A stretch of 64,000 nt of DNA from Candidatus Binatia bacterium. GTDB lineage: Bacteria > Desulfobacterota > Binatia > UBA9968 > JAJDTQ01. Positions 7,996-55,809 of the stretch are shown here, one piece after another. The DNA lies in contig JAJDXX010000035.1 in the NCBI GenBank assembly GCA_022823055.1, forward strand, positions 22,054-86,053. The letters run 5' to 3'. Each line of letters opens with the position of its first letter. Position 1 is the first letter of the stretch. The notes under the pieces were generated by a model. That model was not told the DNA's origin. It worked only from the letters and a program-made list of their open reading frames with translations, and did not search any database. Position numbers and translations under genes: made by a program.

Positions 7996-8036
7996 CGCCG
8001 GCAGGTCGGCAAACACAAACCAGGCAGGATGAAGAG

Positions 8037-8219: not shown

Positions 8220-8249
8220 CGTGCCCTGGATTGCGCCTGTCCCCGGTGC

Positions 8250-32702: not shown

Positions 32703-34169
32703 TCAGTCCAGCAGGTAGCCGAACTTCTCATGAGCCTTGCGCACCACGTCCGGACCGGGCGCGTTCACCTTGGGGTACTTGTCGAACCACTCGTAGGGAC
32801 GGCAGGCGTCCACCACTACGCGGGAGTTGGTGAGGTCCTGGACCTTGCGCTGGTCCGGCGTCACCCGCGGGTCGGCGGGGGAGGTGCGCATCTTGCGCAG
32901 GATCTCGATGGAGGTCTCGGGGTCGGTGCGCGTGAGCATGGCCCAGATCAACTCGTCCAGGTTGGACACGTCCACGTCGTCGTCCACCACGATGACGAAC
33001 TTGCAGCCGTACACCACCGAGCCGCAGGACGACGCGAGCACCCCCGCCTGCTTGGCGTGGCCGGGGTAGCGCTGCTTGATGCCGATGCCGTGCAGCAGGC
33101 GCGAGGCGCCGACCTCGTGGCACCATACCTGGGTGACGTCGGGCACGCCGGCGTTGGCCAGTTCGTGCTTGAGCATGGCCGAGCGCATGATGGCGCGGTA
33201 GCGGGCCATCTCGTCGGAACCCGCGCCCAGCGGCGGCACGCCCAGGATGATGGGATCGTTTCGGTGGTAGATGGCGCGGATGTCCAGGGTGGGCTGAGCG
33301 CTGGCGCCGCCGGCATAGTAACCGGTCCATTCCCCGAACGGCCCCTCCACCGCGCGCTCGTCCTGGGTCAGGAACCCTTCCAGCACGATCTCCGCGTTGG
33401 CCGGGATGGGCAGTCCCGTCACCTTGCCGCGCACCACCTCCACGGGGGTGCCGCGCAGCCCGCCCACCACGTCGAACTCGCACACGCCGTAGGGGAACTC
33501 CGTGCCCCCCACGAAGAACGACATGGGGTCGCTGCCCACCACCAGCGCCACGGGCATGGGCTGTCCCTTGTCGAAGTACTTCTTGCGGTGCATGTAGGCG
33601 TGCTTGCCCGGCACGAACAGCAGGCTCACCGACTTCGGGCTCTGCACCATGGCGCGGTACGTGCCGACGTTGATCCAGCGCTCGTCCGGGTCGATGGTGA
33701 CACAGAAGCAGCCCGTGCCGATGTAGCGGCCGCCGTCGTCCCGGTGCCACTTGGGGGTGGGGAACTTCATGACGTCGACGTCGTCGCCGGTGAGGATGTT
33801 CTCGAACACCGGCCCGTCGTCCACCACCACGTGGGGCAGGCGCCGCTGCACCTTGATGTAGTGGTCGAAGAAAGCCTGGCTCAACTCCTGCTTGGTGAGG
33901 TGGTCGGGAAACCCCAGCGTCATGTTCCGGCGCTTGCCGGCGAAGGCGTTGATCAGGACGCGGAACCCCTTGGGGCAGCCGGGGACCTCGTCGAACAGCA
34001 CCGCCGGCCCGTCGTCCACGCGGATCACCGCGTCGGCGGCCAAGCCGATGTCCTCTTCCCAGCTCGCGCCGGTGACGGTGCGCAACTCGCCCAGGGCGTC
34101 GGCCCGGGCCATCCATTCGCGGAGGTCGTGGTAGGGGAGTCTGGCTTCCATGGTTTCGGTGGTGGACAT
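32703..34169 (-). CDS. UbiD-family (prFMN-dependent) decarboxylase/carboxylase
   Basis: 488 aa; full-length UbiD family similarity (...GPFGEWTGYYAG..., ...VIVVDDDVDVSNLDELIWAMLTR...). Confidence 0.85.
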   Translation of the reverse strand: MSTTETMEARLPYHDLREWMARADALGELRTVTGASWEEDIGLAADAVIRVDDGPAVLFDEVPGCPKGFRVLINAFAGKRRNMTLGFPDHLTKQELSQAFFDHYIKVQRRLPHVVVDDGPVFENILTGDDVDVMKFPTPKWHRDDGGRYIGTGCFCVTIDPDERWINVGTYRAMVQSPKSVSLLFVPGKHAYMHRKKYFDKGQPMPVALVVGSDPMSFFVGGTEFPYGVCEFDVVGGLRGTPVEVVRGKVTGLPIPANAEIVLEGFLTQDERAVEGPFGEWTGYYAGGASAQPTLDIRAIYHRNDPIILGVPPLGAGSDEMARYRAIMRSAMLKHELANAGVPDVTQVWCHEVGASRLLHGIGIKQRYPGHAKQAGVLASSCGSVVYGCKFVIVVDDDVDVSNLDELIWAMLTRTDPETSIEILRKMRTSPADPRVTPDQRKVQDLTNSRVVVDACRPYEWFDKYPKVNAPGPDVVRKAHEKFGYLLD

Positions 34170-38660: not shown

Positions 38661-38671
38661 GGGAGAGCACG

Positions 38672-39811: not shown

Positions 39812-39838
39812 CGTCCGCGGACGCCGGAGGACAGTGCC

Positions 39839-40417: not shown

Positions 40418-40429
40418 GGATCCGTTGAC

Positions 40430-43111: not shown

Positions 43112-43159
43112 CGCCGGCCAGCCACCCCCGATTCAAGCCCGACCCTCGTGGCTCCCGCC

Positions 43160-43298
43160 CGTCGTCATTCCCGGCCCCCCATACGTCATTCCCGCGAAAG
43201 CGGGAATCCAGGCGGGGTGGGGCCTGGGGCAATGGGCCGCCACACCACCACCTCTGGATTCCCGCTTTCGCGGGAATGACGTATGGGGGGCCGAAGTC
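43160..43298. repeat. MITE-like palindromic repeat, copy 3
   Basis: TCATTCCCGGCCCCCCATACGTCATTCCCGCGAAAGCGGGAATCCAGG...CTGGATTCCCGCTTTCGCGGGAATGACGTATGGGGGGCCGAAGTC; lies directly after the Mo-enzyme large subunit. Confidence 0.85.
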
Positions 43299-43312
43299 TT
43301 CATCGTCGAAGG

Positions 43313-45457
43313 ACCATGACCGATCCCGTTAGTTTGATCTCCCCGTATCTTCGGGCCCCGGAGGAACCGATCCGTTGCGCCGCCGCCCGCGCTCTCGGCG
43401 TGCTGGGCGACGAGGACGCGGCACCGGCTCTGGTGGACGCGTTGCTGGACCCGGACCCGGACGTGCGCGCCGATGCCATGGCGGCGCTGGTGCGTTGCGC
43501 CCGGCCGCAGGACGCGCCGGCGATCCGGCGCTCGTTGCAGGGCGATCCGGCGGGCGACGTCAAGACCGCGGCCGTGCGGGTCCTGGGCCGGCTCAAGGAC
43601 ACGGCGTCCACGGAGTTGCTGCGGGCGCTGGCGCAGGACCGATGCGAGCCGGAGGTGGCGTGGGAAGAGGGTTCGTGGGACGACTGGCTCGACGTGCAGG
43701 TGGCCGCCATCGCCGCCCTGGGGGACATGGGCGCCGAGTCCGCGGTGGACGACCTGGTCCGGGTACGGGCCGACGAGGATGGACAGGAGCTCGATCACGT
43801 GGTCTTCGCCGCCTTGGCGAAGATGCCCGGACGCGGAGTCGCGGCCCTCCTCGATTTCCTGAGGGACGGCGACGCGCGGGTCCGGCAGCGTGCTCTGACG
43901 GCGTTGTCGGGTGTCGGCGGAAGCGGGTTGACGCCGTTGCGCGACCGTCTCATCGGCGACCGGAGCGCGGGGGTTCGCCGGATCGCGGTGGATTGCCTGG
44001 ACGCGGACGACCCGGTACTGTCCGCCCTCGCCCTGAAGGACCCTGACCCCGCGGTCCGTGCCGCCGCGCTGACGCGAGTCGCGCCGGTCCGGGAGGATAT
44101 CGTCCGGTCGGCTCTGGGCGATCCCGAACCGGGAGTACGCGCCGCGGCCGTCGAGGCGCTTGCCGCGCACGTGTCCCCGGGTGACCGGCCCGCGCTCGCC
44201 GCGAAGCTGGAAGCCTGGCTTCGGGACGGGAACGCCCGCCTGGCGGCGGCGTGTGCGGAGGCCCTGCCCAAGGTATCGGGTAGGGCCGCACTGGGTCCGC
44301 TGCGGCGGATGGCGGCGGCCACGGAAGCGCTTGTCGAGGTGCGTATCGCCGCGCTCAAGGGCCTGGGAGAGGTCGGCACGCCGGAGGCCGTGGACGTGTT
44401 GCGTGCTGCAGCGGTGGATTCCGTCCGCCAAGTGCGTCTGGCGGCGTTGGCGGCCGCGGCCGCGTTGATCCGCACCGGGCTTGAGGCCGGGGCGCGGAAC
44501 CTGTTGATCGGCGCCATGTGCGGCGATCTTCGAACCGAGGCCTTCGGTGGGGAAACGGCTACGGAGGAACCTGTTTCCGGTGCGGCAGTTCCCGGGCCCG
44601 GTGAAAGGGGACGCATCGCCATTGCGCCCGAGGGCGACATAGTCCCCGCGAAGGAGACGCCAGAGGTTTCCGGTTCGTCCGACTCCGGCACGGGCGCCGA
44701 AGCACCGCCGTACCCGCGCTCCACTCTCGAAGCGATTCAGGCGACGGGGTTCGGGGCACCCGGGCGGTCCCCGCGTCCGCCGGCGTCACCGGCGACCGCC
44801 GGGCGAGTCCGGTCCCGCCGCGTGCCCGTGGGGGGCGCGGACGACGTCGACGCCGATATTCGGCTGACGGCGGTCCGGCTTGCCGCGGACTGCGGCGCCA
44901 ACGGCATGGACGAGGTGCTGGCGGAAACCGCCCTGTCGACGGAATCCGACCTGCGGGCGGCCGTCTTCGAGGCCATAGCCCAGCGCGCGGCGGCCATGCC
45001 GTTGGCGCCCGTCCTGCGGGCTGTCCTGGCGCGGTCACTGGGCTCCGACGATGCGCGCGTGCGTTGCGCCGCCGTCCGCGGCCTGACCGCGGCGGGTCTC
45101 GACCACGCGCGACAACTCATCCCGCTGCTGGACGACCCCGACCCCTCGGTCCGGGCGGCGGCGGTGACGGCGGTTGCCGCCGTCCATCCGGAGAGAGCCG
45201 CGGCGGGTTTTCACGACTCCTCGCCCCTGGTCCGCCGAGCCGCTGTGGACGCCGTCATCGCGGCAGGCGAGGATCGTTTGCTCGACGACGGCCTGCGGGT
45301 GCTGGTGGACGGCAGCCATGCCGACAGCCTCATGGATGCATGTGCGCGTCACATTGAGGTGACTCGGAAGTTGATCGGGATGCTCAGCGATCCCCAGGTC
45401 TCGAAGCCGAGGCTTCGGACGATGCTGGAAGCCTTGGGCGGTGCCGGGGGCGAATGA
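43313..45457 (+). CDS. HEAT-repeat (PBS-lyase-type) protein
   Basis: More than 10 tandem HEAT-like units (D/EP..VRA.AA.AL...); GC3 pattern supports plus frame over the overlapping 432-aa minus ORF. Confidence 0.6.
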   Translation, partial: TMTDPVSLISPYLRAPEEPIRCAAARALGVLGDEDAAPALVDALLDPDPDVRADAMAALVRCARPQDAPAIRRSLQGDPAGDVKTAAVRVLGRLKDTASTELLRALAQDRCEPEVAWEEGSWDDWLDVQVAAIAALGDMGAESAVDDLVRVRADEDGQELDHVVFAALAKMPGRGVAALLDFLRDGDARVRQRALTALSGVGGSGLTPLRDRLIGDRSAGVRRIAVDCLDADDPVLSALALKDPDPAVRAAALTRVAPVREDIVRSALGDPEPGVRAAAVEALAAHVSPGDRPALAAKLEAWLRDGNARLAAACAEALPKVSGRAALGPLRRMAAATEALVEVRIAALKGLGEVGTPEAVDVLRAAAVDSVRQVRLAALAAAAALIRTGLEAGARNLLIGAMCGDLRTEAFGGETATEEPVSGAAVPGPGERGRIAIAPEGDIVPAKETPEVSGSSDSGTGAEAPPYPRSTLEAIQATGFGAPGRSPRPPASPATAGRVRSRRVPVGGADDVDADIRLTAVRLAADCGANGMDEVLAETALSTESDLRAAVFEAIAQRAAAMPLAPVLRAVLARSLGSDDARVRCAAVRGLTAAGLDHARQLIPLLDDPDPSVRAAAVTAVAAVHPERAAAGFHDSSPLVRRAAVDAVIAAGEDRLLDDGLRVLVDGSHADSLMDACARHIEVTRKLIGMLSDPQVSKPRLRTMLEALGGAGGE

Positions 45458-45505
45458 ACCGGAAGCGACACCAGTCGAACCGTGAAGCGGCGGCGCGGGG
45501 CAGGC

Positions 45506-47104
45506 CTATTTCTCTTCAAACGCGATCCGGCCGCCCGTCATGGTGAGGACGGGCCGGATGGCCGCGATTTCGTCCGGCGGGACCGTCAAGTAGTCACGGT
45601 CGAGCACGACCAGGTCAGCCAGCTTCCCGGTCTCCAGTGACCCGAGACTGTTCTCCTTGAACAGCAATTTCGCGTTGTTGATCGTATGGGCGATGAGGGC
45701 GGCCTTGCGGGAGACGCGTTGATCTTCGCTCCAGGCCTTCTGTCCCGCGATATTACGGCCCGTCACGGCCCAGCCGAGGGTCAGGAACGGATTGATCGGC
45801 GCGACGATGGCGCCGTCCGAGCCCAGCCCCCATAGCACTCCGGAACGCTCGATGCTGCCGAGAGGCGGACGGTTGCGTGACCGCGAGTTCATCATCGCCT
45901 GGGAGTGCACGGCAACGGCCACCCCCAGCTCACGGGCCCGATTCAGGTCCGGTTCGGTGATGCCCAACGAATGCGCCAGCGTCCAGCGCAGCTCCTTGAC
46001 CTCCGGGGTGTCGAACGCGATCTCTTCGACCAGGTCGATGAACTGGGAAATGGTAGGCCCGCTCATGGTGTGTTCGTGGATCGGCCAACCATGCCTGGCG
46101 GCGGCGCGCGAAATGGTGCGTACGGGACCCCAGACGGAGTCTTCCCAGCGTTCCCGGCGGTTGGCCCGGTCGTGCATCGGCCCGTATATGTGTTCGCCCA
46201 GTCCGATCACGCCGAATTGATCCGTCGTGCTGAACGGCTTCGCGGCGCCACCCGTTATGAGTTTCAGGGCATCGTCCGTGCTTTGGGGATCGGTGGCGCG
46301 GTAGCGCAGCGTGTGGAAGACCCGCAGCGGCATCGGCCCGGCGGCGGCCAGGCTTGCAACCGGCGCCAGTTTGCCCTCGCTCGGCCGTCCGATATCGTAG
46401 ACCGTCGTCAGGCCCACCCGGTTCAGCGCGGCCATGTAGGCGAGTATCGCTTTCTTGCTGGAGCTCTTGTTGCGCCAGCCTATGAAGCGCCCGAAGGGCC
46501 GGAAGCTTTGCCGCCCGCGCATCCGGGCGCCTTCGGCGGGGTCCCGGCCCACCGCCTTCAGGGCCACGCTGTTGGCGTAAGCCGTGCGGTAGCTTTGCTG
46601 AATATAGACAGGATTGTCGGGCGCCGCCGCATCCAGCTCGGCGAGAGTGAAGCCGCCCGGCTCGTCCCGGAACTGGCCCGGCGACCAGCCGCCGACTACG
46701 GTAATCCACTGACCCTTTGGCGCCGAGGCCGTTTTCGCCGCAATCATCGCCAAGGCCTTGGACCGGCTCATGACGCCATCGAGGCGAACCTCGCGCTGAT
46801 AGTTCCAGACGCTGCGGATGAAGTGAAAGTGATTGTCGATCAAGCCGGGGATCACCGTCTTGCCCCCCAGCTCGATGATCCGGGTATTCGGACCCTTGTG
46901 GCGGGCCACCGTCCCAGCGGAACCGACCGCGACAATCCGGCCGTCATCGATGGCCAGACTGTGGGCGATGGAGAATTCCGGGTCCACCGTCAATATTCTT
47001 CCGTTGGAGACGATGATGTCCGCCGGTTGCGCCGCGGCTTCGGGCACCGGAACAAGCGCCCACGTGAGAACCGCCAACGCGGTGAGAAAATGCCGTAGCG
47101 ACAT
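45506..47104 (-). CDS. Amidohydrolase_3 (YtcJ-like metal-dependent hydrolase) with signal peptide
   Basis: PGLIDNHFHF metal-binding start, ...GSDGAIVAPINPF..., C-terminal LADLVVLDRD; ATG at 47104 with GGGAGG RBS and signal peptide MSLRHFLTALAVLTWALVPVPEAAAQ. Confidence 0.75.
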   Translation of the reverse strand: MSLRHFLTALAVLTWALVPVPEAAAQPADIIVSNGRILTVDPEFSIAHSLAIDDGRIVAVGSAGTVARHKGPNTRIIELGGKTVIPGLIDNHFHFIRSVWNYQREVRLDGVMSRSKALAMIAAKTASAPKGQWITVVGGWSPGQFRDEPGGFTLAELDAAAPDNPVYIQQSYRTAYANSVALKAVGRDPAEGARMRGRQSFRPFGRFIGWRNKSSSKKAILAYMAALNRVGLTTVYDIGRPSEGKLAPVASLAAAGPMPLRVFHTLRYRATDPQSTDDALKLITGGAAKPFSTTDQFGVIGLGEHIYGPMHDRANRRERWEDSVWGPVRTISRAAARHGWPIHEHTMSGPTISQFIDLVEEIAFDTPEVKELRWTLAHSLGITEPDLNRARELGVAVAVHSQAMMNSRSRNRPPLGSIERSGVLWGLGSDGAIVAPINPFLTLGWAVTGRNIAGQKAWSEDQRVSRKAALIAHTINNAKLLFKENSLGSLETGKLADLVVLDRDYLTVPPDEIAAIRPVLTMTGGRIAFEEK

Positions 47105-47271
47105 GGTCGTATCCTCCCGGTTGTCCTGGCAAGCATCGCCGGAACCGTACTCTCTGCCCCGGTTCCCTGGCACGAAAGCACCACTTCGTTCAGTTAGACG
47201 GTAGCGAGTTCCCGGCGGTGGAGTCAGACTTCCCTGTTCCCGCCAGATCCGGTATTCTCTCGGACGCTGAA

Positions 47272-48186
47272 ATGCGCATTGTGATCCACGGACAGCAGGG
47301 GTTCGGCAAGGGCGTGTTGGAACGGCTGGTGGCGGGTCCCGATGAGGTGATCGGGGTCTTCTGTCCGCCGGACCAGCAGGGCCGGCCCGTGGACCCGCTC
47401 AAGGAAGCAGCGCTGGAGCGCGGGTTGCCGGTGCACCAGCCCGCGACCTGGAAGACGGACGAGGCGCTGGAGCTCATGGAGTCCTGCCAAGCCGACCTGT
47501 GCGTCATGGCCTACGTGACCATGCTGGTGCCGCAACCGGTTCTCGACGCGCCCGGACTGGGCACCATCCAGTACCACCCTTCGCTGCTGCCGTTGCATCG
47601 CGGGCCCAGCTCCATCAACTGGGCGCGAATACAGGGAGACCGCAAGACGGGCCTAACCGTTTTCTGGCCGGATGACGGCCTGGACGAGGGTCCGATCCTG
47701 CTGCAGAAGGAGGTGGAGATTGCCGAGGACGACACCGTCGGCAGCCTCTACTTCGGCAAACTGTTTCCCATGGGCGTCGACGCCCTCGCCGAGGCGGTGG
47801 ACCTCGTGCGCGCCGGCAAGGCGCCGCGCATCGAGCAGGACCACAGCCGCGCCACCTATGAAGGCTGGTGCGGGGAGGACGACGCCGCCGTCGACTGGTC
47901 CACACCCGCGGAAGAGGTACACCGGCTCATCTGCGGCACCGACCCCCAGCCCGGCGCCTGGACCACCGTGGACGGCAACCGCCTCAAGCTGTTCGGCAGC
48001 CGTCTGGGTGCCGCCTCGGGCTCGCCCGGCGAGGTTCTGGACTTGTCCGATGCCGGAATGACGGTGGCGGCGGGTGAGGGTAGCGTCGTGGTGCAACGGG
48101 TGAGGGCCCACGACTCCCGGGCCAAGGTCGCCGCCGCCGAATACGCCGGCGGGGCCGGGATCCGTCCCGGCGGGCGTCTGGGCTGA
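47272..48186 (+). CDS. Formyltransferase (Fmt-like) family protein
   Basis: MRIVIHGQQGFG...HPSLLPLHRGPSSINWARIQGD (formyl_trans_N SLLP..RG motif) plus C-terminal Fmt-C-like domain. Confidence 0.7.
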   Translation: MRIVIHGQQGFGKGVLERLVAGPDEVIGVFCPPDQQGRPVDPLKEAALERGLPVHQPATWKTDEALELMESCQADLCVMAYVTMLVPQPVLDAPGLGTIQYHPSLLPLHRGPSSINWARIQGDRKTGLTVFWPDDGLDEGPILLQKEVEIAEDDTVGSLYFGKLFPMGVDALAEAVDLVRAGKAPRIEQDHSRATYEGWCGEDDAAVDWSTPAEEVHRLICGTDPQPGAWTTVDGNRLKLFGSRLGAASGSPGEVLDLSDAGMTVAAGEGSVVVQRVRAHDSRAKVAAAEYAGGAGIRPGGRLG

Positions 48187-48276
48187 CCGCCTCCGCCCGG
48201 CCTGCCGCCCCATTGGTTCGACGCCCCTGAAAGCTTGAGCCGCGTCAGCCTTCCGTGTCAAAGTTGACGGGAGACC

Positions 48277-49521
48277 ATGGAACGCGCCCGGCTGGACAGG
48301 CTCAACGACATGCTCGGCGAGGTGCTCCGGACCAACGAGTTCTATCGCCGCAAGCTCGAAGGCCGCTTCGCGCTGCCGCTGGCGGGGCCGGAGCCGTTGT
48401 CCGGGCTGCCCTTTACCACCAAGCAGGAACTGGTGGACGACCAGCTCCGGCATCCGCCGTTCGGCAGCGACCTGACCTATCCGGTGGAGCGCTACGTGCG
48501 CGTGCACCAGACCTCGGGCACCACCGGCCGGCCCATGTACTGGCTGGATACCGAGGCGTCGTGGGACTGGTGGGGCGAGTGCTGGAAGACGGTGCTGGAG
48601 GCGACCGGAGTGGGGTCCGAGGACCGGATCTTCTTCCCGTTCTCGTTCGGACCGTTCATAGGGTTCTGGAGCGGCTGGGAAGGCGCCCGCAAGGTGGGTG
48701 CGCTGGCCGTCTCCGGCGGCGGACAGTCCACGCAGCAGCGGCTCAAGAGCCTCCTTGACTACGGCGCCACCGTGCTGGTGTGCACCCCCACGTATGCGCT
48801 GCACATGGCGGCGGAGGCGCGCCGGTCGGGGATGAACCTTGCGCGCGACTCCGCGGTCCGGGTCACGGTGCACGCGGGCGAGCCCGGCGCGAGCATCGCG
48901 TCCACCAGGCAGCGCATCGAGGAGGCGTGGGGCGCCCGCTGCTTCGACCACACCGGCGCCACCGAGGTGGGCGCCTTCGGTTTCGCGTGCGAGGCCCCGG
49001 CGGAGGAGGTGCACGTCAACGAGGACGAGTTCATCGCCGAGGTGGTGGACCCGGAGAGCGGCGCGTCGCTGCCGGACGGCGCCCGGGGCGAACTGGTGCT
49101 GACCAACCTGGGCCGGGTGGGAAGCCCGGCCATCCGCTACCGCACCGGCGATCTGGTGGAGCCTCGGCGCGGCACCTGCGCGTGCGGGCGCGACTCGCTG
49201 GTGTTGCGGGGGGGTGTTCTCGGGCGTGTGGATGATATGGTGGTGGTGCGGGGAGTGAACGTGTTCCCCAGCGCGGTGGAGGGCATCGTTCGGCGGTTCC
49301 CCGAGGTGGAGGAGTTCCGCGTGGACGTGGTGCAGAGCGACGGAATGGCCGAGTTGAAGATCACGGTGGAGCCGGGTGCGGCGGGAGCGCCGGCCGGGCT
49401 TGCGGAAGGCGTGGTCGAGTCCGTCCGGGACAACCTGCACATCCGCCCGGTGGTGGAGGTTGTGGCGCCGGGGACTTTGCCCCGTTTCGAGTTGAAGGCT
49501 CGGCGGTTCTTTCGAGGTTGA
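48277..49521 (+). CDS. Phenylacetate-CoA ligase-like (PaaK/F390 synthetase family) aryl-acid-CoA ligase
   Basis: AMP-binding core HQTSGTTGRPMYW; PaaK-type length (414 aa) and C-terminal RYRTGD...VVVRGVNVFPSAVEGIV block. Confidence 0.8.
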   Translation: MERARLDRLNDMLGEVLRTNEFYRRKLEGRFALPLAGPEPLSGLPFTTKQELVDDQLRHPPFGSDLTYPVERYVRVHQTSGTTGRPMYWLDTEASWDWWGECWKTVLEATGVGSEDRIFFPFSFGPFIGFWSGWEGARKVGALAVSGGGQSTQQRLKSLLDYGATVLVCTPTYALHMAAEARRSGMNLARDSAVRVTVHAGEPGASIASTRQRIEEAWGARCFDHTGATEVGAFGFACEAPAEEVHVNEDEFIAEVVDPESGASLPDGARGELVLTNLGRVGSPAIRYRTGDLVEPRRGTCACGRDSLVLRGGVLGRVDDMVVVRGVNVFPSAVEGIVRRFPEVEEFRVDVVQSDGMAELKITVEPGAAGAPAGLAEGVVESVRDNLHIRPVVEVVAPGTLPRFELKARRFFRG

Positions 49522-49529
49522 GCAACGCG

Positions 49530-50038
<509 letters not shown>

Positions 50039-50042
<4 letters not shown>

Positions 50043-52408
50043 AGAAGAACGGGTTCTCCGTCATCGGCAAGCCGCTGCCGCGCATCGACGGTCCGGCCAA
50101 GTGCGCGGGCGACACGCGTTACGCCGACGACATGGTGCTGCCGCGCATGCTGTTCTCCCGGCTGCTGCGGAGCCCGCACCCCCACGCCTTGGTGCACGGC
50201 GTCTCGGCGAAACGCGCGTTGGAGCTGCCGGGCGTCCACGCGGTCATCACCGGCGCGGACGTGCCCACCAAGTTCGGCATCATGCCTTCCACCCAGGACG
50301 AGGAGGCACTGGCGGTGGACAAGGTGCGCTACGTCGGCGACCCGGTGGCGGCGGTGGCGGCGGTGAGTGAGGACGCGGCCGAGGAGGCGCTCGGCCTCAT
50401 CGAGGTGGACTACCAGGTGCTCGACCCCATCCTGTCCATCGAGGGCGCGCTGGCGGCCGAGGACCACCGCATCCACACCTGGAACCGGCACGCCAATATC
50501 CAGAAGGCGGTGTCCTTCGAGTTCGGCGACGTGGACGCCGGCTTTGCGGAGGCGGACGAGGTGTTCGAGGGCACCTACTTCTTCCAGGGCAACACCCACT
50601 TGCCCATGGAGCAGTACTGCGCGCTGGCCAGCTACACTCCCGACGGCAAGCTGACGCTGTGGTCCTCCACCCAGACCCCGCACTACGTGCACCGCGCCCT
50701 GTCCCGGGTCCTGGGCCTGCCCATGGGGCACATCCGGGTCGTCGCCACGCCGGTGGGCGGCGGTTTCGGCGGCAAGAGCGACCCGTTCTCCCACGAGATC
50801 GCGGTGGCCAAGCTGGCCATGATCACGGGGCGGCCGGTGAAGATCACCCTCAACCGGGAAGAGTCGTTCTATGTGCACCGGGGGCGCCATCCCGTGAAGA
50901 TGTGGATGCGCACGGGGGTCAAGCGGGACGGCACGCTCACGGGCATGTGGTTCCGCTCGTTCCTGGACGGCGGCGGCTACAGCAGCTACGGCCTGGCCAC
51001 GGTCTACTACACGGGTGCGCTGCAGACGGTGACCTACGAGTTGCCGGCCTACAAGTTCGAGGGCGTGCGCGTGTTCACCAACAAGCCGCCGTGCGGTCCC
51101 AAGCGCGGCCACGGCACCCCCCAGCCGCGTTTCGCCATGGAGGTGCAGCTCGACGAGATCGCGGAAAAGCTCGGGCTGGACCCGGTGGAAATGCGCCTCA
51201 AGCAGGTGGTGGCGCCCGACAGCGTCACGGTGAACGGACTGCGGGTGTCGACCATCGGCCTGCGGGAATGCATCGAGAAGGTGGCCGAGCGCTCGGGCTG
51301 GAAGGACAAGCACCGCGCGCTACCCGACGGCCACGGCATCGGCTTCGCCGCCAGCTCCTACATCAGCGGCGCGGGTTTGCCCATCTACTGGAACGACATG
51401 CCCCACTCGGGGGTGCAGCTCCGCGCCGACCGGGGCGGCGGCGTCACGGTCTTCTGCGGCTCCACGGACATCGGCCAGGGTTCGGACTCGATCCTCGCCT
51501 TCGCCGTGGCCGAGGAGCTGGGGCTTCAGCCGGAGGACGTGCGGGTGGTGACCGCGGATACCGACCTTACGCCCGTGGACCTGGGCAGCTACTCCAGCCG
51601 GGTCACGGTGATGACCGGCAACGCCGCCATCCAGGCCTGCGGCAACCTCAAGGAGCGCCTGTTCGAGGTGGCCTCGGAGGTGCTGGAGGTGCCCGCCGAC
51701 GACCTTGAGATGGAGGAAGGGCATGTGCGCAGCCGCAGCCTGCCGGACCTGGGCCTGGCCTTCGCCGAGTGCGTCGAGCGCGCCGAGACCCGCTTCGGCA
51801 CCCTGGGCGCCACCGGCAGCTACCGGCCGCCGCGCCATCCGGGCGACTATAAGGGCGCCGGCGTCGGCCCCACGCCGTCGTACAGCTACTCCGCCGCGGT
51901 GGTGGAGCTCCACTGCGACGCCGACACCGGCGAGATCCGCATCGACAAGGTATGGATCGCCCACGACTGCGGCCGTGCCTTCAATCCCTTGTGGGTGGAG
52001 GGGCAGGTGGAGGGCAGCGTCTACATGGCCCTGGGCGAGGTGCTGATGGAAGAGCAGATCTTCCGCAAGTCGGGTGTGCACAAGATCCCTTCCATCCTCG
52101 AGTACAAGAGCCCCACCACGCTGGAGACGCCGCCCATCGAGACCATCCTGGTGGAGACCGACGACCCCGAGGGTCCCTTCGGCGCCAAGGAAGCGGGCCA
52201 GGGGCCGCTGCTGCCGGTGATCCCGGCGGTGTCCAACGCCGTGTACGACGCGGTGGGGGTGCGCATTCACGAGATCCCCATCACCCCGGACAAGATCCTG
52301 CGGGCGCTGGACCAGCGCCTCAAGGACCCCACGGTGCCGGACTTCGCGTTTCCCGCGCCCATCCGTTGGGCGCCGGGGCAGGGGGTCGAAGTGCCCCAGA
52401 AGAGCTGA
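50039..52408 (+). CDS. Molybdopterin-binding large subunit, xanthine-dehydrogenase family (CoxL/HcrA-like)
   Basis: 789 aa; ATGA overlap with small subunit; Ald_Xan_dh_C and C2 blocks (…GGGFGGK…, …GEP/AGQG…). Confidence 0.85.
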
Positions 52409-52427
52409 GAGAGTTGAGACCGGGCTG

Positions 52428-53453
52428 ATGCTGCGACTTCCCGATTTCACCTACATCCGGCCCCGCACCCTGGCGGAAGCGGCCGGCGTGCTCCAGGAGC
52501 TGGGGGCGGAAGCCATGGCCGTGGCCGGCGGCACCGACGTCTACCCCAAGATGAAGCGCGGTCAGTTCACCCCGCGCTACTTGGTGTCGCTGAGCCGTGT
52601 CGAAGAGCACCGGGGCATCCGCCGGGAGGAGGCGCGCGGGCTGTGGATCGGCGCGGGCGAGACCTTGACCGCGGTCGCCGGACACGCCACGGTGCGCCGG
52701 GAGTTTCCCGCGCTCGCCGCCGCGGCCGGCCTGGTGTCGACCCTGCAGCTCCGCAACGCCGGCACCATCGGCGGCAACCTGTTCGTGGACACCCGCTGCA
52801 ACTACTACGACCAGTCGTTCTTCTGGCGCCAGGCCGTGGGCTTCTGCCTCAAGAAGGACGGCGACATCTGCCTAGTGGCGCCCAAGAGTCGCGTCTGCCT
52901 CGCCATCTGTTCTTCGGACACCGCGCCGGTGCTCAGCAGCCTGGGCGCCGAGGCGGTTCTGGTGAGCGCCCGGGGCAACCGGCGGGTGCCGCTGGAAACC
53001 CTGTACCGCGACGACGGCATCGACTACCTTGCCAAGCGGCCCGACGAGCTGCTGCAGGGGGTTTGGATCCCGGAGTCGTCGTTCGGCTGGCGCAACGTCT
53101 ACCTCAAGCTGCGCCGCAGGGGCTCCTTCGACTTCCCCGTGCTGGGGGTGGCCGCGGCGCTGCGGTTGGGAGCGGCGGGAGCCTGTGAGGCGGTCCGCAT
53201 CGTCCTGACCGCGGTGGCGTCGGCGCCGAAGGTGGTGGAGGATGCGCCCCGGGTGCTGTGCGGCAAGCCCGTGGACGCCGCCGCCATCGAGGAAGCGGCG
53301 GAACTGGCCATGCGTGTGTCCCATCCGCTGGACAACGCGGACATGGATTACTGGTATCGCAAGCGCATGACACGGGTGTACGTGACGCGCGCGCTGCGGC
53401 AACTCGCGGAGGTCGGCGCCACAACCGCCGGCCCGGATGCGGCCCCCGTTTGA
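52428..53453 (+). CDS. FAD-binding subunit (CoxM/HcrB-like) carrying a Cys-rich insertion predicted to bind an extra [4Fe-4S] cluster
   Basis: FAD-binding PCMH domain (AVAGGTDVYPKMK). An inserted loop CNYYDQSFFWRQAVGFCLKKDGDICLVAPKSRVC gives C-x15-C-x7-C-x8-C, the spacing I recall for the extra cluster of 4-hydroxybenzoyl-CoA reductase beta subunits. Confidence 0.8.
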   Translation: MLRLPDFTYIRPRTLAEAAGVLQELGAEAMAVAGGTDVYPKMKRGQFTPRYLVSLSRVEEHRGIRREEARGLWIGAGETLTAVAGHATVRREFPALAAAAGLVSTLQLRNAGTIGGNLFVDTRCNYYDQSFFWRQAVGFCLKKDGDICLVAPKSRVCLAICSSDTAPVLSSLGAEAVLVSARGNRRVPLETLYRDDGIDYLAKRPDELLQGVWIPESSFGWRNVYLKLRRRGSFDFPVLGVAAALRLGAAGACEAVRIVLTAVASAPKVVEDAPRVLCGKPVDAAAIEEAAELAMRVSHPLDNADMDYWYRKRMTRVYVTRALRQLAEVGATTAGPDAAPV

Positions 53454-53473
53454 CCGGGCCGGAAAGGGAAGCC

Positions 53474-54946
53474 ATGGCGGTACCCGCTGAACTGGAAGCA
53501 CGGTTGCGAAGCCTGGAGGATCACCTGCGCGCGGAGAACCCCGTCTTGCTGGGCGCGGTGCAGAGCTTTCGCAGGCTCGACGGCATCGCCCGCGGGCTGG
53601 GGTTGCTGGGCGAGGAGGAGTCCTACGCCACGCGCATCCCCTGGTGGCCGCTGGTCGCGGTGCTGGGGACCTATTCGTCCGGGAAGTCCACGTTCATCAA
53701 CGATTTCCTCGGCCGACGGGTGCAGGACACGGGCAATCAGGCGGTGGACGATCGTTTCTCGGTGCTGTGCTTCGGCACGGAACCGGACGTACGGGTGCTG
53801 CCCGGAGTGGCGCTGGACGCCGACCCGCGCTTCCCGTTCTACAAGATGAGCCGGGCCATCGAGGAGATCAGCCCGGGGGAGGGAAGCCGCATCGACGCCT
53901 ACCTCCAGCTCAAGACCTGTCCCGGCGAGGTGCTGCGCGGCAGGATCCTCATCGATTCGCCGGGCTTCGACGCGGATCAGCAGCGCACCGCCACCCTGAG
54001 GATCACGGACCGCATCATCGATCTGGCGGATCTGGTGCTGGTGTTCTTCGACGCCCGCCATCCCGAGCCCGGCGCCATGCAGGACACCTTGCAGCACCTG
54101 GTGGCGGAGACCATTCACCGGACGGATTCGAGCAAGTTCCTGTACATCCTGAACCAGATGGATCACACGGCGCGCGAGAACAATCCGGAGGACATCGTCG
54201 GGTCCTGGCAGCGTGCGCTGGCGCAGAAGGGGCTCACCGCGGGGCGTTTCTACTGCATCTACAGCCCCAACGCCGCCGTCGTCATCGAGGACGACGGCCT
54301 GCGGGGGAGTTTCGAGCAGAAGCGGGACGAGGATCTTTCGGAGATCCATGGGCGCGTCCGGCAGGTGGGAGTAGATCGCTGCTATCGTATCATGGGCGTT
54401 CTGGAGCACACCGCGCGCGACATCGAATTGCGCCTGGTGCCGCGGCTCCGGGAGATGATCACCGACTGGCGCCGCCAGGTGCGGCGGCTGGACGGCGCCG
54501 TCTTCGCCGTGCTGCTGGCCGCGGCGCTGGGGTGGGCGGTCTGGAAGGGTGCATGGAGTGATTACTGGGCGGTGCTTTCAGGGGCGTCGGCGTGGACCTA
54601 CGGCGTGCTGGCGGTCGCGGCCCTGGTGGCCGGCTATGTCCACCACACCGTCCGGCGATTGGCCGCCGGGCGGGTCCTGCGAACTCTCCGGCGCTCGCTG
54701 GGAGCCGAGCGCGACACCGAGGTGCTCGACGCCCTGACCGCGGCATTCCGCAAGAACACGAGCCTCTGGCGCAACGTGTTCTCGGCGCGTCCGGCCGGCT
54801 GGAACCCCGCCACCCGGCAGCAACTCTCCGAGGTGATCACCGAGGCCAACGGCTACGTGCAGACCCTCAACGACCAGTTCACCAACCCCGGCGGCCGGAC
54901 GGACGCGGCGCCCCCGGCGGATCCGCCCGCCGAGGCGTCCGGGTAG
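53474..54946 (+). CDS. Dynamin-family GTPase with C-terminal membrane hairpin (bacterial dynamin-like protein)
   Basis: P-loop GTYSSGKST, DSPG switch II, NQMD (G4); two predicted C-terminal TM helices. Confidence 0.7.
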   Translation: MAVPAELEARLRSLEDHLRAENPVLLGAVQSFRRLDGIARGLGLLGEEESYATRIPWWPLVAVLGTYSSGKSTFINDFLGRRVQDTGNQAVDDRFSVLCFGTEPDVRVLPGVALDADPRFPFYKMSRAIEEISPGEGSRIDAYLQLKTCPGEVLRGRILIDSPGFDADQQRTATLRITDRIIDLADLVLVFFDARHPEPGAMQDTLQHLVAETIHRTDSSKFLYILNQMDHTARENNPEDIVGSWQRALAQKGLTAGRFYCIYSPNAAVVIEDDGLRGSFEQKRDEDLSEIHGRVRQVGVDRCYRIMGVLEHTARDIELRLVPRLREMITDWRRQVRRLDGAVFAVLLAAALGWAVWKGAWSDYWAVLSGASAWTYGVLAVAALVAGYVHHTVRRLAAGRVLRTLRRSLGAERDTEVLDALTAAFRKNTSLWRNVFSARPAGWNPATRQQLSEVITEANGYVQTLNDQFTNPGGRTDAAPPADPPAEASG

Positions 54947-54955
54947 CCGACGACA

Positions 54956-55648
54956 CTACGACTTGTCCGGGGCGGCTGCCAGAGGAACCTTCCCGGGCAG
55001 GCCGGCGTGTTCCGGCGGGGAGAATTCGCGGCCGACGATGCCCGAGGAGACGATGAACTTGAATGCCTCCTCGATGTTGTAGTCGGTGTCGATGACTTCG
55101 TTCTCGGGCACCAGCACCAGGAAGCCGGACGTCGGGTTCGGGGTGGTGGGGATGAAGACCGACAGCATCGTGTCGGCGGAGGAGAGGTTGAACGTGTCGG
55201 GCCGGGGCGTGGCCACCAGCCCCATCATCCAGGCCCCCTTTCTGGGATACTCGAGCAGCACCACCCGTTGGAAGCTCCGGCGCGGGCCGTGGAGCGTCTC
55301 CACCAACTGTTTGACGGCACCATAGATGGTGCTGACCAGCGGCAGGCGCATGACCATTCGGTTGACCGCGGCCAGGACGCGGCGACCGACGATGTTGGTG
55401 CCGAACACTCCGACGAGGAAGATCAGCGACAGGACGATGAGCAGGTTGATGAACGGGACCAGCGGCGTCAGCCAGTAAAGCCCATCCAGGTTGAACACCG
55501 ACAGGACCCACCTCAGCACAGGCGTGCCCGAGTTGCTCAGCAGATTGAACAGGAACGCGATCAGCAGGTACGTCACGAAAAGGGGGATCAGGATCAGCAC
55601 CCCCGTGATCATCGCGTTTCGCAGGAAATGAGGTTTTCTCGCTTGCAT
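54956..55648 (-). CDS. DUF502 family membrane protein
   Basis: Two N-terminal TM helices and a conserved C-terminal soluble domain typical of DUF502; start taken at MQARKPHF. Confidence 0.6.
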   Translation of the reverse strand: MQARKPHFLRNAMITGVLILIPLFVTYLLIAFLFNLLSNSGTPVLRWVLSVFNLDGLYWLTPLVPFINLLIVLSLIFLVGVFGTNIVGRRVLAAVNRMVMRLPLVSTIYGAVKQLVETLHGPRRSFQRVVLLEYPRKGAWMMGLVATPRPDTFNLSSADTMLSVFIPTTPNPTSGFLVLVPENEVIDTDYNIEEAFKFIVSSGIVGREFSPPEHAGLPGKVPLAAAPDKS

Positions 55649-55809
55649 GAATACTCGTTCGGCGCGTGTGATGGCGCAAAGGATACGTGAACCCCACCAC
55701 CGTGGCAAGAGTCCCCGGAAAGTCCTCGACGCGGTATTGACAATTTTGTCTAAGTCGTTATACAGTCGGCAAAATCCCTGCCCGTTTTCGCAGCACAGGA
55801 GAACAGAAC

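What the first reader, a model, noticed from the sequence alone, without database searches (positions are those of the whole stretch)
47272..53453. HcrCAB-like three-subunit molybdoenzyme (FAD subunit with extra [4Fe-4S]-binding loop) downstream of a PaaK-like aryl-CoA ligase: candidate anaerobic 4-hydroxybenzoyl-CoA-type reductive dehydroxylation module
The gene order 2Fe-2S small, Mo large, FAD subunit follows a PaaK-family CoA ligase and an Fmt-like formyltransferase. The FAD subunit carries a ~40-residue insertion with Cys spacing C-x15-C-x7-C-x8-C. As I recall this is exactly the spacing of the four Cys that bind the additional [4Fe-4S] cluster in 4-hydroxybenzoyl-CoA reductase beta (HcrB), which permits inverted, reductive electron flow. 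Ordinary CO-dehydrogenase/XDH medium subunits lack this loop. Together with the UbiD-family (de)carboxylase and the amidohydrolase_2 (aromatic decarboxylase family) gene elsewhere in the window, this suggests anaerobic phenolic-compound metabolism.
Basis: partly seen in the sequence, partly recalled or inferred. Interest (0 to 1): 0.6.

Follow-up and report, generated by a model that had tools for sequence, protein, structure and literature searches.

The report
Variant hydroxybenzoyl-CoA reductase-like molybdenum enzyme
The flagged genes do encode a three-subunit molybdenum enzyme built like the anaerobic 4-hydroxybenzoyl-CoA reductase, extra iron-sulfur loop included, but it belongs to a large uncharacterised sister clade, common in soil bacteria including aerobes, in which the family's universal catalytic glutamate is a glutamine.

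Summary
Window 47272-53453 holds five genes in a row:
- a formyltransferase-like gene
- a PaaK-family ligase
- a 2x[2Fe-2S] subunit
- a 789-aa Mo subunit
- a 341-aa FAD subunit

The FAD subunit has a 38-residue insertion with C-x15-C-x7-C-x8-C. It aligns column for column with the [4Fe-4S] loop of T. aromatica HcrB.

- All three subunits fall below NCBIfam's HCR equivalog cut-offs.
- The Mo subunit is 43% identical to HcrA and sits in a separate clade (91/100 bootstraps).
- The catalytic Glu (HcrA E726) is Gln721 here. It is also Gln in all 120 closest database homologs and in all 81 scorable Mo ORFs from related loci across about 10 phyla.

The conserved partner is the PaaK-type ligase. Benzoyl-CoA enzymes sit beside relatives:
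- BoxB/BoxC in Methylomirabilota
- a BCR-like reductase in a Firmicutes lineage
- UbiD (de)carboxylases in Binatia

The cassette also occurs in cultured Ktedonobacteria, which I know as aerobes, so "anaerobic" is not supported.

Best reading (about 0.5): a ferredoxin-driven aryl-CoA reductase that removes a para substituent to give benzoyl-CoA. The substrate (4-hydroxy-, possibly 4-amino-benzoyl-CoA) is unproven. It is a new variant of a known kind.

The parts
48277..49521 (+). PaaK-family adenylate-forming acyl/aryl-CoA ligase (414 aa). Presumed to make the CoA thioester substrate.
   Evidence: Pfam AMP-binding plus AMP-binding_C_2. The best NCBIfam hits are PaaK models, far below cut-off (238<700 and 201<646). 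PDB relatives are 2-hydroxyisobutyryl-CoA synthetase and PaaK at about 1e-50. Orthologs accompany the Mo enzyme in 27 of 39 well-flanked loci.
49530..50042 (+). [quoted passage not shown] No twin-arginine signal.
   Evidence: Pfam Fer2 plus Fer2_2. Cys49/54/57/69 and Cys108/111/143/145. It does not discriminate between families: XdhC 183, glyceraldehyde DH gamma 180, HcrC 180 bits, the last below its 257.8 cut-off.
50039..52408 (+). Molybdopterin (Mo) large subunit (789 aa, HcrA-like). Gln721 (codon CAG, 52199-52201) replaces the catalytic Glu. Phe346 (51074-51076) replaces a family-conserved Tyr.
   Evidence: Best PDB hit is 1RM6_A at E=1.2e-188; the next hit is 8e-85. TIGR03194 scores 862 against a cut-off of 994.55. 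Identity to T. aromatica HcrA is 42.9%. The motif is GAKEAGQG against GAKEASEG in HcrA. Gln aligns with the catalytic Glu of NdhM, QorL, a CoxL-type protein and PaoC. Clade-specific changes are listed.
52428..53453 (+). FAD subunit (341 aa, HcrB-like) with a 38-residue insertion carrying the four Cys of an extra [4Fe-4S] cluster (loop at 52797-52898).
   Evidence: 1RM6_B at E=1.5e-54 with a gap-free loop alignment. Identity to HcrB is 38% with the four Cys invariant. TIGR03195 scores 260.7 against a cut-off of 404.55. The loop is conserved in 84/84 FAD ORFs of the fetched loci.
47272..48186 (+). Formyltransferase-fold gene 90 nt upstream of the ligase. Probably a 10-formyl-THF hydrolase/transferase. 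Its membership of the module is doubtful.
   Evidence: Pfam Formyl_trans_N/C. The best PDB hit is the N-terminal hydrolase domain of 10-formyl-THF dehydrogenase (E=1e-63), against Fmt at 4e-47. It is found next to the cluster only in Binatia subclade I.
32703..34169 (-). UbiD-family (de)carboxylase of the phenylphosphate-carboxylase-beta / VdcC type. Loosely associated with the module.
   Evidence: NCBIfam: PpcB 286, VdcC 272, UbiD family 271 (above its 245 cut-off), against ubiquinone UbiD at 157. In sister genomes L005, L007, L011 and L014 the ortholog lies 3-4 kb upstream of the Fmt/PaaK genes. The window carries an extra block of about 10 kb in between. It is 41% identical to a UbiD that sits downstream of the enzyme in Binatia subclade II.
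53474..54946 (+). Dynamin-like GTPase gene 20 nt downstream of the FAD subunit. Syntenic, with no evidence of a functional link.
   Evidence: Pfam Dynamin_N. It is conserved downstream only in the closely related subclade I genomes, where the whole downstream region is syntenic.

Best explanation
The module is a cytoplasmic two-step funnel for an aromatic acid.

Step 1: the PaaK-family ligase makes an aryl-CoA thioester.

Step 2: a three-subunit enzyme of the 4-hydroxybenzoyl-CoA reductase lineage reduces that thioester. Its cofactors would be Mo-pterin, two [2Fe-2S], FAD and an extra [4Fe-4S]. It takes low-potential electrons (ferredoxin) in through the extra [4Fe-4S], then via FAD and the two [2Fe-2S] to Mo. 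There a para substituent is removed to give benzoyl-CoA. The substituent is most simply the hydroxyl of 4-hydroxybenzoyl-CoA.

The product then enters whichever benzoyl-CoA pathway the host has. The enzyme is not an ortholog of the characterised reductase. It belongs to a large, previously undescribed 'Gln-type' clade in which the catalytic glutamate of the xanthine oxidase family is glutamine.

Shown here: the domain and cofactor-motif anatomy, the clade and its Gln signature, and the gene neighbourhoods.

Inferred: the direction of electron flow, benzoyl-CoA as the product, and the identity of the substrate.
For: 1. HCR is by far the closest characterised relative for the two informative subunits. 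The HcrB-type four-Cys loop is invariant.
2. Gln replaces the general-base Glu in the window, in all 120 closest homologs and in all 81 scorable Mo ORFs of the fetched loci (80 related loci plus earlier fetches), spanning about 10 phyla. From established knowledge, this Glu is required for hydroxylation in the family, so the change argues against an ordinary oxidative hydroxylase.
3. Benzoyl-CoA enzymes lie beside the enzyme in independent lineages:
   - BoxC (922 bits against a 712 cut-off), BoxB (867 against 499) and a benzoate-CoA ligase family protein (696 against 375), in one operon in Methylomirabilota/Rokubacteria
   - a four-subunit BCR-like reductase and genes with the Pfam families of the lower-pathway enzymes, in a Firmicutes Gln-type lineage
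4. That Firmicutes operon also carries two 2-oxoacid:ferredoxin oxidoreductases, which are plausible ferredoxin reducers.
5. The PaaK-type ligase is the most conserved neighbour.
6. PpcB/VdcC-like UbiD genes flank the cluster in Binatia. This matches the D. anilini phenol cluster, where a PaaK-like ligase is assigned as 4-hydroxybenzoyl-CoA ligase next to HCR subunits and PpcB (PMC6114531).
Against: - No activity data exist for any member of this clade.
- All three subunits score below the HCR equivalog cut-offs, and the clade excludes T. aromatica HcrA.
- The characterised reductase keeps the Glu, so Gln may signal different chemistry or a different leaving group.
- No ferredoxin gene, box genes or bcr/bam genes are in the window.
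- The cassette occurs in cultured Ktedonobacter and Thermogemmatispora. From my own knowledge these are aerobes and the Thauera enzyme is oxygen-sensitive, which would be a conflict.
- PaaK-family ligases classically act on arylacetates.
- The tree is neighbour-joining only.
Confidence: 0.5

Rival explanations
1. This is a true ortholog of the anaerobic 4-hydroxybenzoyl-CoA reductase (HcrCAB/HbaBCD), doing exactly that job in an anaerobic phenol/4-hydroxybenzoate pathway.
For: Same subunit order and the same [4Fe-4S] loop. HCR is the best NCBIfam and PDB hit for the large and FAD subunits. JGI's automatic annotation names homologs 4-hydroxybenzoyl-CoA reductase. A PpcB-like UbiD is nearby.
Against: Scores are below all three equivalog cut-offs, and only the canonical cluster P0140 passes (1301.7). 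The clade is separate, with 0/100 bootstraps grouping it exclusively with HcrA. Glu726 is Gln. The ligase is PaaK-type, not the benzoate-CoA ligase type of Thauera and Rhodopseudomonas (own knowledge). Relatives are linked to the oxygen-dependent Box pathway and the cassette occurs in cultured Ktedonobacteria. No bcr/bam genes are in the window.
Confidence: 0.1
2. It is a reductive deaminase for 4-aminobenzoyl-CoA, or a remover of another para substituent. The architecture and electron flow are those of the best explanation, but the leaving group differs, and the Gln is the adaptation to it.
For: In D. anilini, HCR-like protein sets distinct from the phenol-cluster one, plus a PaaK-like ligase (H567DRAFT_02937), are abundant only in two of the four growth conditions in the proteome table. 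I read these as the aniline and 4-aminobenzoate cultures. [quoted passage not shown] No paper in the library identifies that enzyme. A RidA-family (enamine/imine deaminase) gene sits in the Methylomirabilota operon. A hemerythrin gene precedes the Firmicutes Gln-type operon.
Against: I could not check whether the D. anilini proteins carry Gln. The RidA and hemerythrin links are weak. Environmental 4-aminobenzoate or aniline seems too rare a substrate for so widespread a cassette.
Confidence: 0.12
3. It is an arylacetyl-CoA alpha-oxidising enzyme, a soluble analogue of phenylacetyl-CoA:acceptor oxidoreductase PadBCD. It would turn the ligase product phenylacetyl-CoA into phenylglyoxylate, which is then converted to benzoyl-CoA.
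For: The invariable partner is a PaaK-family ligase. In the Firmicutes lineage that ligase scores 488 bits on the PaaK model. There it sits with a PaaX regulator, IorA (669 against a 651 cut-off), a second 2-oxoacid:ferredoxin oxidoreductase and a BCR-like reductase. That set lacks only the alpha-oxidation step of the known anaerobic phenylacetate route.
Against: No xanthine-oxidase-family enzyme is known to hydroxylate an sp3 carbon (own knowledge). The closest relative is a reductase, and the low-potential-type [4Fe-4S] loop is strictly kept. The Methylomirabilota and Chloroflexota operons contain no enzyme to convert phenylglyoxylate to benzoyl-CoA. The window's ligase scores only 201-238 bits on PaaK models.
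Confidence: 0.15
4. It runs oxidatively as a hydroxylase or aldehyde oxidoreductase. One version: it oxidises the BoxC product 3,4-dehydroadipyl-CoA semialdehyde and hands the electrons through its [4Fe-4S] to BoxB, replacing BoxD and BoxA.
For: In the Methylomirabilota loci examined, the operon carries boxC and boxB but no boxA or boxD within about 10 kb. A SAR324 study likewise reported BoxB and BoxC without BoxD (PMC4782131). From my own knowledge, PaoABC shows that an extra [4Fe-4S] can serve an oxidative enzyme.
Against: The general-base Glu needed for hydroxylation and aldehyde oxidation is missing in every member. The core cassette occurs without box genes in Binatia and Chloroflexota. 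The loop is HcrB-type, not PaoB-type.
Confidence: 0.08
5. It is an ordinary CO dehydrogenase, xanthine dehydrogenase or PaoABC-type aldehyde oxidoreductase that happens to lie next to a ligase.
For: The generic Pfam architecture is shared by all of these. NCBI names homologs 'xanthine dehydrogenase family protein'.
Against: NCBIfam scores against cut-offs: CoxL 290 against 991, XdhA 541 against 780, PaoC 291 against 1180. CoxM lacks the loop. The PaoB-type loop is not similar. The small subunit has no Tat signal. The ligase linkage is conserved across phyla.
Confidence: 0.02

Closest known systems
4-Hydroxybenzoyl-CoA reductase HcrCAB of Thauera aromatica (PDB 1RM6/1SB3; R. palustris HbaBCD)
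   Same: Three subunits in the same gene order. It is the closest solved relative of the large subunit (E=1.2e-188) and the FAD subunit (E=1.5e-54). The FAD-subunit insertion has identical C-x15-C-x7-C-x8-C spacing and aligns without gaps.
   Different: Identity is only 43% (large subunit) and 38% (FAD subunit). Scores are below the equivalog cut-offs and the clade is separate. Gln replaces Glu726 and Phe replaces Tyr348. The partner is a PaaK-type ligase rather than a benzoate-CoA-ligase-type one (own knowledge). The taxa include cultured Ktedonobacteria, which I know as aerobes, and relatives with Box-pathway neighbours.
Desulfatiglans anilini phenol (pps-ppc) cluster, and its aniline/4-aminobenzoate-induced hcr and ani clusters
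   Same: The same combination of a PaaK-like ligase, HCR-like subunits (partly annotated as CO dehydrogenase subunits) and a PpcB-type UbiD carboxylase (PMC6114531; PMC7500099).
   Different: D. anilini is a strict anaerobe with a tungsten BamB-type ring reductase. The window has no phenylphosphate synthase or UbiX nearby. Sequence relatedness and the Glu/Gln state of the D. anilini proteins were not testable here.
Urolithin C dehydroxylase Ucdh of Enterocloster bolteae
   Same: A xanthine-oxidase-family enzyme that works reductively, removing a phenolic OH para to an electron-withdrawing carbonyl. It is described as only the second such enzyme after HCR (PMC12771579).
   Different: Its substrate is not a CoA thioester. 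It is 33% identical to HCR by the authors' count. It comes from a strictly anaerobic gut Firmicute. It was not compared directly here.
E. coli periplasmic aldehyde oxidoreductase PaoABC (PDB 5G5G/5G5H)
   Same: A heterotrimeric xanthine-oxidase-family enzyme whose FAD subunit aligns with the window's in a single stretch. From my own knowledge it also carries a [4Fe-4S].
   Different: The loop sequence is not significantly similar. PaoC scores 291 against a cut-off of 1180, and PaoA 141 against 322. From my own knowledge, PaoA is Tat-exported and the gene order is A-B-C. PaoC keeps the catalytic Glu, which aligns with the window's Gln.
Phenylacetyl-CoA:acceptor oxidoreductase PadBCD; 2-furoyl-CoA dehydrogenase HmfABC
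   Same: Both are Mo enzymes acting on aryl/heteroaryl(acetyl)-CoA thioesters made by a dedicated ligase (own knowledge). Both are functional models for the oxidative rivals.
   Different: PadBCD belongs to the DMSO reductase family and is unrelated in sequence. HmfABC is an oxidative hydroxylase and could not be compared here because no sequence or model was available in the tools.

Membership tests
4-hydroxybenzoyl-CoA reductase (HcrCAB/HbaBCD) sensu stricto | Three subunits: 2x[2Fe-2S] small, Mo large, FAD medium | tested here: met
   Pfam domains and gene order.
4-hydroxybenzoyl-CoA reductase (HcrCAB/HbaBCD) sensu stricto | FAD subunit insertion with four Cys binding an extra [4Fe-4S] | tested here: met
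   Gap-free alignment with the 1RM6_B loop. Cys124/140/148/157 are invariant. Cluster binding itself is inferred.
4-hydroxybenzoyl-CoA reductase (HcrCAB/HbaBCD) sensu stricto | Scores above the NCBIfam equivalog cut-offs (TIGR03194/03195/03193) | tested here: not met
   862.2<994.55, 260.7<404.55 and 179.9<257.8. The canonical cluster representative P0140 scores 1301.7.
4-hydroxybenzoyl-CoA reductase (HcrCAB/HbaBCD) sensu stricto | Large subunit falls inside the clade of the characterised enzyme | tested here: not met
   NJ tree with 100 bootstraps. The Gln clade has 91 support, TaHcrA+P0140 has 100, and the two as exclusive sisters has 0. No maximum-likelihood tree was possible.
4-hydroxybenzoyl-CoA reductase (HcrCAB/HbaBCD) sensu stricto | Active-site Glu (HcrA E726) retained | tested here: not met
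   Gln721, codon CAG at 52199-52201.
4-hydroxybenzoyl-CoA reductase (HcrCAB/HbaBCD) sensu stricto | Reduces 4-hydroxybenzoyl-CoA to benzoyl-CoA with reduced ferredoxin | not testable with these tools
   Needs enzymology. The only indirect support is the benzoyl-CoA-pathway genes beside relatives.
4-hydroxybenzoyl-CoA reductase (HcrCAB/HbaBCD) sensu stricto | Host has a pathway that consumes benzoyl-CoA | tested here: inconclusive
   None in the 64-kb window. BoxB/BoxC or BCR-like genes are adjacent in other lineages. A genome-wide check of Binatia was not possible.
Xanthine oxidase family molybdenum hydroxylases (generic) | Mo-binding domains plus the general-base Glu in the G-x-K-G-x-G-E motif | tested here: not met
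   The domains are present. The Glu is Gln, while about 91% of the other family representatives sampled have Glu.
Phenylacetate-CoA ligase PaaK (equivalog) | Score above the TIGR02155 / NF041878 cut-offs | tested here: not met
   200.8<646.3 and 238.2<700. It is a PaaK-superfamily member only, with the TSGTTGRP motif present.
PaoABC periplasmic aldehyde oxidoreductase | Scores above the PaoA and PaoC equivalog cut-offs | tested here: not met
   PaoC 291<1180 and PaoA 141<322. The small-subunit N-terminus MSTSETITGKRLMRL has no Tat motif. The loop search does not return PaoB.
Aerobic CO dehydrogenase CoxSML | CoxL equivalog score; medium subunit without the insertion | tested here: not met
   TIGR02416 scores 290<991. 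CoxM alignments break at the insertion.
Methionyl-tRNA formyltransferase Fmt (the upstream gene) | Score above the TIGR00460 cut-off | tested here: not met
   158.7<201.5. It is closer to the FDH N-terminal hydrolase domain, E=1e-63.

The most novel reading that the evidence does not exclude
The Gln-type clade performs chemistry not yet assigned to any enzyme. [quoted passage not shown] More broadly, it could be an aryl-CoA reductase that feeds the oxygen-dependent Box pathway. That would make a new 'reductive-then-oxygenolytic' hybrid route common in soil phyla.
Probability: 0.12. Interest if true: 0.8.

Novelty: new variant of a known kind. Interest (0 to 1): 0.6.

Why it matters
Only two reductive dehydroxylases are known in the xanthine oxidase family, HCR and Ucdh (PMC12771579). 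This window belongs to a third group related to HCR that is widespread.
- At least 573 pattern-matched stretches in species-representative genomes encode a relative of the loop-bearing FAD subunit.
- The 80 best loci all carry a Gln-type large subunit.
- They span Binatia, Methylomirabilota, Chloroflexota, Acidobacteriota, Actinomycetes, Dormibacterota, Eremiobacterota, SAR324 and others.

Automatic pipelines label these proteins either as 4-hydroxybenzoyl-CoA reductase or as generic xanthine dehydrogenase. Metagenome studies then count them as 'anaerobic benzoyl-CoA pathway' genes.

Three things would follow if the clade really reduces aryl-CoA esters in aerobes and feeds BoxB/BoxC:
- a new entry route into the aerobic benzoyl-CoA pathway
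- the question of how a low-potential, normally oxygen-sensitive reaction runs in such organisms
- a natural Glu-to-Gln experiment on the family's catalytic mechanism

Cultured carriers (Thermogemmatispora aurantia, Ktedonobacter robiniae) make this testable.

Tried and rejected
- Promoter and terminator scan of 45400-55800. Nothing exceeded shuffles, so operon boundaries remain inferred from spacing only.
- Literature searches for Binatia/Binatota plus HCR, Rokubacteria plus benzoyl-CoA, and box plus HCR. I found no description of this clade. One preprint notes many 'HCR' annotations in Binatota MAGs.
- The HCR structure paper (PMID 15576037) is not held. Active-site comparison was therefore limited to family-wide motifs.
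- PaoABC-type and CO-dehydrogenase readings were rejected on scores, loop type and the lack of a Tat signal.
- The Amidohydro_2 gene (27902-28966) lies in a housekeeping stretch and has no NCBIfam hit at E<=1e-10. It was dropped from the module.
- The Fmt-like gene and the dynamin-like gene are syntenic only among closely related Binatia. They are treated as neighbours, not parts.
- Cluster-member look-up of the sister representatives gave only automatic names.
- I looked for BoxA and BoxD near the Methylomirabilota box operons. None of the ten flanking ORFs scanned in four loci had matching domains.
- Structure prediction was not run. Only window or the search for homologous proteins sequences can be submitted, and no coordinates are returned to measure active-site distances.
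- NCBI names two Glu-type sister proteins as HcrA. They score below the current cut-off, so that naming was not used as evidence.

Full report
**What is in the window**

The window has about 67% G+C. A near-identical stretch lies on an ENA metagenome contig. The closest homologs are named Candidatus Binatia or 'Deltaproteobacteria bacterium' MAGs.

Five co-directional genes lie between 47272 and 53453:
- a formyltransferase-fold gene
- a PaaK-type adenylate-forming ligase
- a 2x[2Fe-2S] subunit
- a 789-aa molybdopterin subunit
- a 341-aa FAD subunit

They are separated by 90 nt, 8 nt, a 4-nt overlap and 19 nt. A dynamin-like GTPase gene follows after 20 nt. An Amidohydro_3 gene is divergent upstream.

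The FAD subunit's best solved relative is HcrB of T. aromatica (1RM6_B, E=1.5e-54). The Cys-rich stretch aligns without a gap, Cys for Cys. CO-dehydrogenase medium subunits align in two pieces that skip query residues 119-163, so the insertion is about 38 residues. Searched alone, the loop finds only HcrB significantly. The four Cys (124, 140, 148, 157) are invariant in an alignment with HcrB and two Binatia relatives. They are also present, with the same spacing, in all 84 FAD ORFs of the fetched loci.

**It is HCR-like but not HCR**

HcrA is far the best hit of the large subunit. The PDB E-value is 1.2e-188 against 8e-85 for the next entry. TIGR03194 scores 862 bits against 541 for the next family. 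Even so, all three subunits are below NCBIfam's equivalog cut-offs (862<994.55, 261<404.55, 180<257.8).

I searched one representative per 50%-identity cluster of about 15 billion proteins. The canonical cluster (P0140) is 61% identical to T. aromatica HcrA and 43% to the window protein. It is the only one of nine representatives and one locus protein that passes the cut-off, at 1301.7.

In a neighbour-joining tree of 154 large subunits, the window protein sits in a clade that excludes HcrA. That clade also holds Binatia, Methylomirabilota/Rokubacteria, Vicinamibacteria, Blastocatellia, Actinomycetes, Dormibacterota, Eremiobacterota, Chloroflexota and SAR324. Clade support is 91/100. The canonical pair has 100/100. 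The two as exclusive sisters has 0/100.

**The unexpected feature**

The xanthine-oxidase-family motif is G-x-K-G-x-G-E. From established knowledge, its Glu is the catalytic general base: bovine XO E1261, CODH E763, HcrA E726. The window protein reads GAKEAGQG (codon CAG at 52199-52201). The Gln aligns with the Glu of HcrA, nicotinate dehydrogenase, quinoline oxidoreductase, a CoxL-type protein and PaoC.

- All 120 closest database homologs have Gln.
- So do all 81 scorable Mo ORFs in the fetched loci, which comprise 80 related genome loci plus earlier fetches.
- About 91% of the other family representatives have Glu.
- Only one other family-conserved position is changed throughout the clade: Tyr348 of HcrA becomes Phe346.
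- A divergent Firmicutes-MAG lineage (P0127) also has Gln and the four-Cys loop, but keeps the Tyr. Of its 120 best hits, 115 are Gln-type.

**Distribution**

A scan of one genome per species, using patterns from the loop, found at least 573 stretches that encode a relative of the FAD subunit. The 80 best are 50-92% identical to the window's FAD subunit, all closer than HcrB at 38%. They include the cultured Thermogemmatispora aurantia and Ktedonobacter robiniae, which I know to be aerobes. There the four genes (small, Mo, FAD, ligase) form an isolated cassette among unrelated genes.

**Neighbourhoods**

The PaaK-type ligase is the most conserved neighbour. It is present in 27 of 39 loci with enough flank.

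- Binatia subclade I (the window's): the order is Fmt-like, ligase, three subunits, dynamin-like. In several sister genomes a PpcB/VdcC-like UbiD lies only 3-4 kb upstream. The window has an extra block of about 10 kb there.
- Binatia subclade II: one to two UbiD genes and a 49-aa ORF directly follow the FAD subunit, with a further UbiD upstream in one genome, and TctAB or binding proteins nearby.
- Methylomirabilota/Rokubacteria: the three subunits head an operon that continues with an XRE/cupin regulator, BoxC (922 against a 712 cut-off), BoxB (867 against 499), a RidA-family gene, a benzoate-CoA ligase family protein (696 against 375) and the PaaK-like ligase. Among the ten flanking ORFs I scanned in four such loci, none had BoxA- or BoxD-type domains.
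- Firmicutes lineage: the operon is hemerythrin, then three subunits, a LeuCD-like pair, PaaK (488 bits), a LeuA-like gene, IorA (669 against 651) with its partner subunit, and a second 2-oxoacid:ferredoxin oxidoreductase. Beside it lie a four-subunit BCR-like reductase, enoyl-CoA hydratase and Zn-alcohol dehydrogenase genes, PaaX and 4HBT thioesterases.

Three independent lineages therefore place the enzyme next to benzoyl-CoA-consuming enzymes, either oxygen-dependent or anaerobic.

**Mechanistic reading**

The anatomy is that of HCR: Mo site, two [2Fe-2S], FAD and a peripheral [4Fe-4S]. From established knowledge, in HCR that cluster lets reduced ferredoxin feed electrons inward.

Loss of the general base argues against ordinary hydroxylase chemistry. 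The benzoyl-CoA neighbours argue that benzoyl-CoA is the product. The ferredoxin-reducing oxidoreductases in the Firmicutes operon fit a reductive direction.

Published precedent links a PaaK-like ligase (assigned as 4-hydroxybenzoyl-CoA ligase), HCR subunits and a PpcB-type carboxylase in the D. anilini phenol cluster (PMC6114531). I therefore favour an aryl-CoA reductase that removes a para substituent, at confidence about 0.5. The substrate is not established.

**Rivals**

[quoted passage not shown] HCR-like sets and a PaaK-like ligase are induced in D. anilini on aniline or 4-aminobenzoate (PMC7500099). No paper in the library identifies the enzyme.
- A PadBCD-like alpha-oxidation of arylacetyl-CoA. 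This fits the ligase family and the Firmicutes gene set. It does not fit the self-contained Methylomirabilota and Chloroflexota operons.
- An oxidative role in the Box pathway, replacing the BoxD and BoxA genes not seen nearby. The Gln disfavours this.
- A true HCR ortholog in an anaerobic pathway. This fails four membership tests.

**Comparison with what is known, and novelty**

The literature held here describes HCR and Ucdh as the only reductive dehydroxylases of the family (PMC12771579). I found no description of a Gln-type clade, of its PaaK-ligase partner or of its Box linkage. Automatic annotation calls these proteins either HCR (JGI) or generic xanthine dehydrogenase family (NCBI). I class it as a new variant of a known kind.

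**Limits**

- There is no biochemistry for any member.
- The tree is neighbour-joining only.
- The HCR structure paper was not available.
- I could not search complete Binatia genomes for box, bcr or ferredoxin genes.
- I could not read the D. anilini sequences.

Noticed in passing
window 37557-47173: A block of about 10 kb lies between an unknown ORF (35761-36801) and the Fmt-like gene. It holds two di-haem cytochrome c peroxidase (CCP/MauG) genes, a 192-aa ORF, an arsenite-oxidase-like large subunit (TIGR02693 424 against a 359 cut-off, with a Rieske_3 domain), a HEAT-repeat protein and an Amidohydro_3 gene. It is absent in sister genomes L005, L007, L011 and L014, and at least partly present (AioA-like and HEAT genes, plus Amidohydro_3 in L008 only) in L006, L008 and L010. 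It looks like an insertion/deletion polymorphism.
   Followed up: partly
window 4497-5849: One ORF combines an N-terminal response-regulator receiver domain with a full LpxC deacetylase domain. It lies just after a HAMP/PAS histidine kinase (2179-4455). This is an unusual fusion that suggests phosphorylation-controlled lipid A synthesis.
   Followed up: no
window 47272-48186: The 'Fmt-like' protein is closer to the N-terminal 10-formyl-THF hydrolase domain of eukaryotic 10-formyltetrahydrofolate dehydrogenase (E=1e-63, HPSLLP and DDGLD motifs kept) than to bacterial Fmt (4e-47). It may be a stand-alone formyl-THF hydrolase.
   Followed up: partly
window 53474-54946: A dynamin-like GTPase gene starts 20 nt after the FAD-subunit stop. 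It keeps this position in all Binatia subclade I genomes. It has no NCBIfam hit at E<=1e-10.
   Followed up: no
L071, L073, L042, L026, L056 (Methylomirabilota/Rokubacteria loci): The box operons here have boxC and boxB fused into one operon with the Gln-type Mo enzyme. In these five gene maps no conserved neighbour family corresponds to boxA (reductase) or boxD (aldehyde dehydrogenase), and the ten flanking ORFs Pfam-scanned (in L073, L042, L026 and L062) had no such domains. A RidA-family gene sits between boxB and the benzoate-CoA ligase. A SAR324 study also reported BoxB and BoxC without BoxD.
   Followed up: partly
L085-L088 (Firmicutes-MAG lineage): A second Gln-type lineage has a conserved operon. 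A hemerythrin gene sits upstream. A LeuCD-like dehydratase pair and a LeuA-like synthase are interleaved with the ligase. IorA with its partner subunit and another 2-oxoacid:ferredoxin oxidoreductase follow. The role of the LeuA/LeuCD-like genes is unexplained.
   Followed up: partly
L065:7483-10001 (Ktedonobacter robiniae): The Mo-subunit gene is split into two overlapping ORFs (7483-9435 and 9420-10001). This could be a frameshift, a pseudogene or an assembly error in this cultured strain.
   Followed up: no
L002:14851-15000, L004:15131-15280 and other Binatia subclade II loci: A conserved 49-aa ORF follows the first UbiD gene downstream of the Mo enzyme. It recalls the small D subunits of VdcCD/BsdCD-type phenolic acid decarboxylases (own knowledge).
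   Followed up: no
representatives P0155, P0192, P0202, P0222, P0226, P0234, P0256: Other, unrelated clusters of the xanthine oxidase family also lack the catalytic Glu (R, I, L, M or A at that column). Natural loss of the general base is therefore recurrent and unexplored.
   Followed up: no
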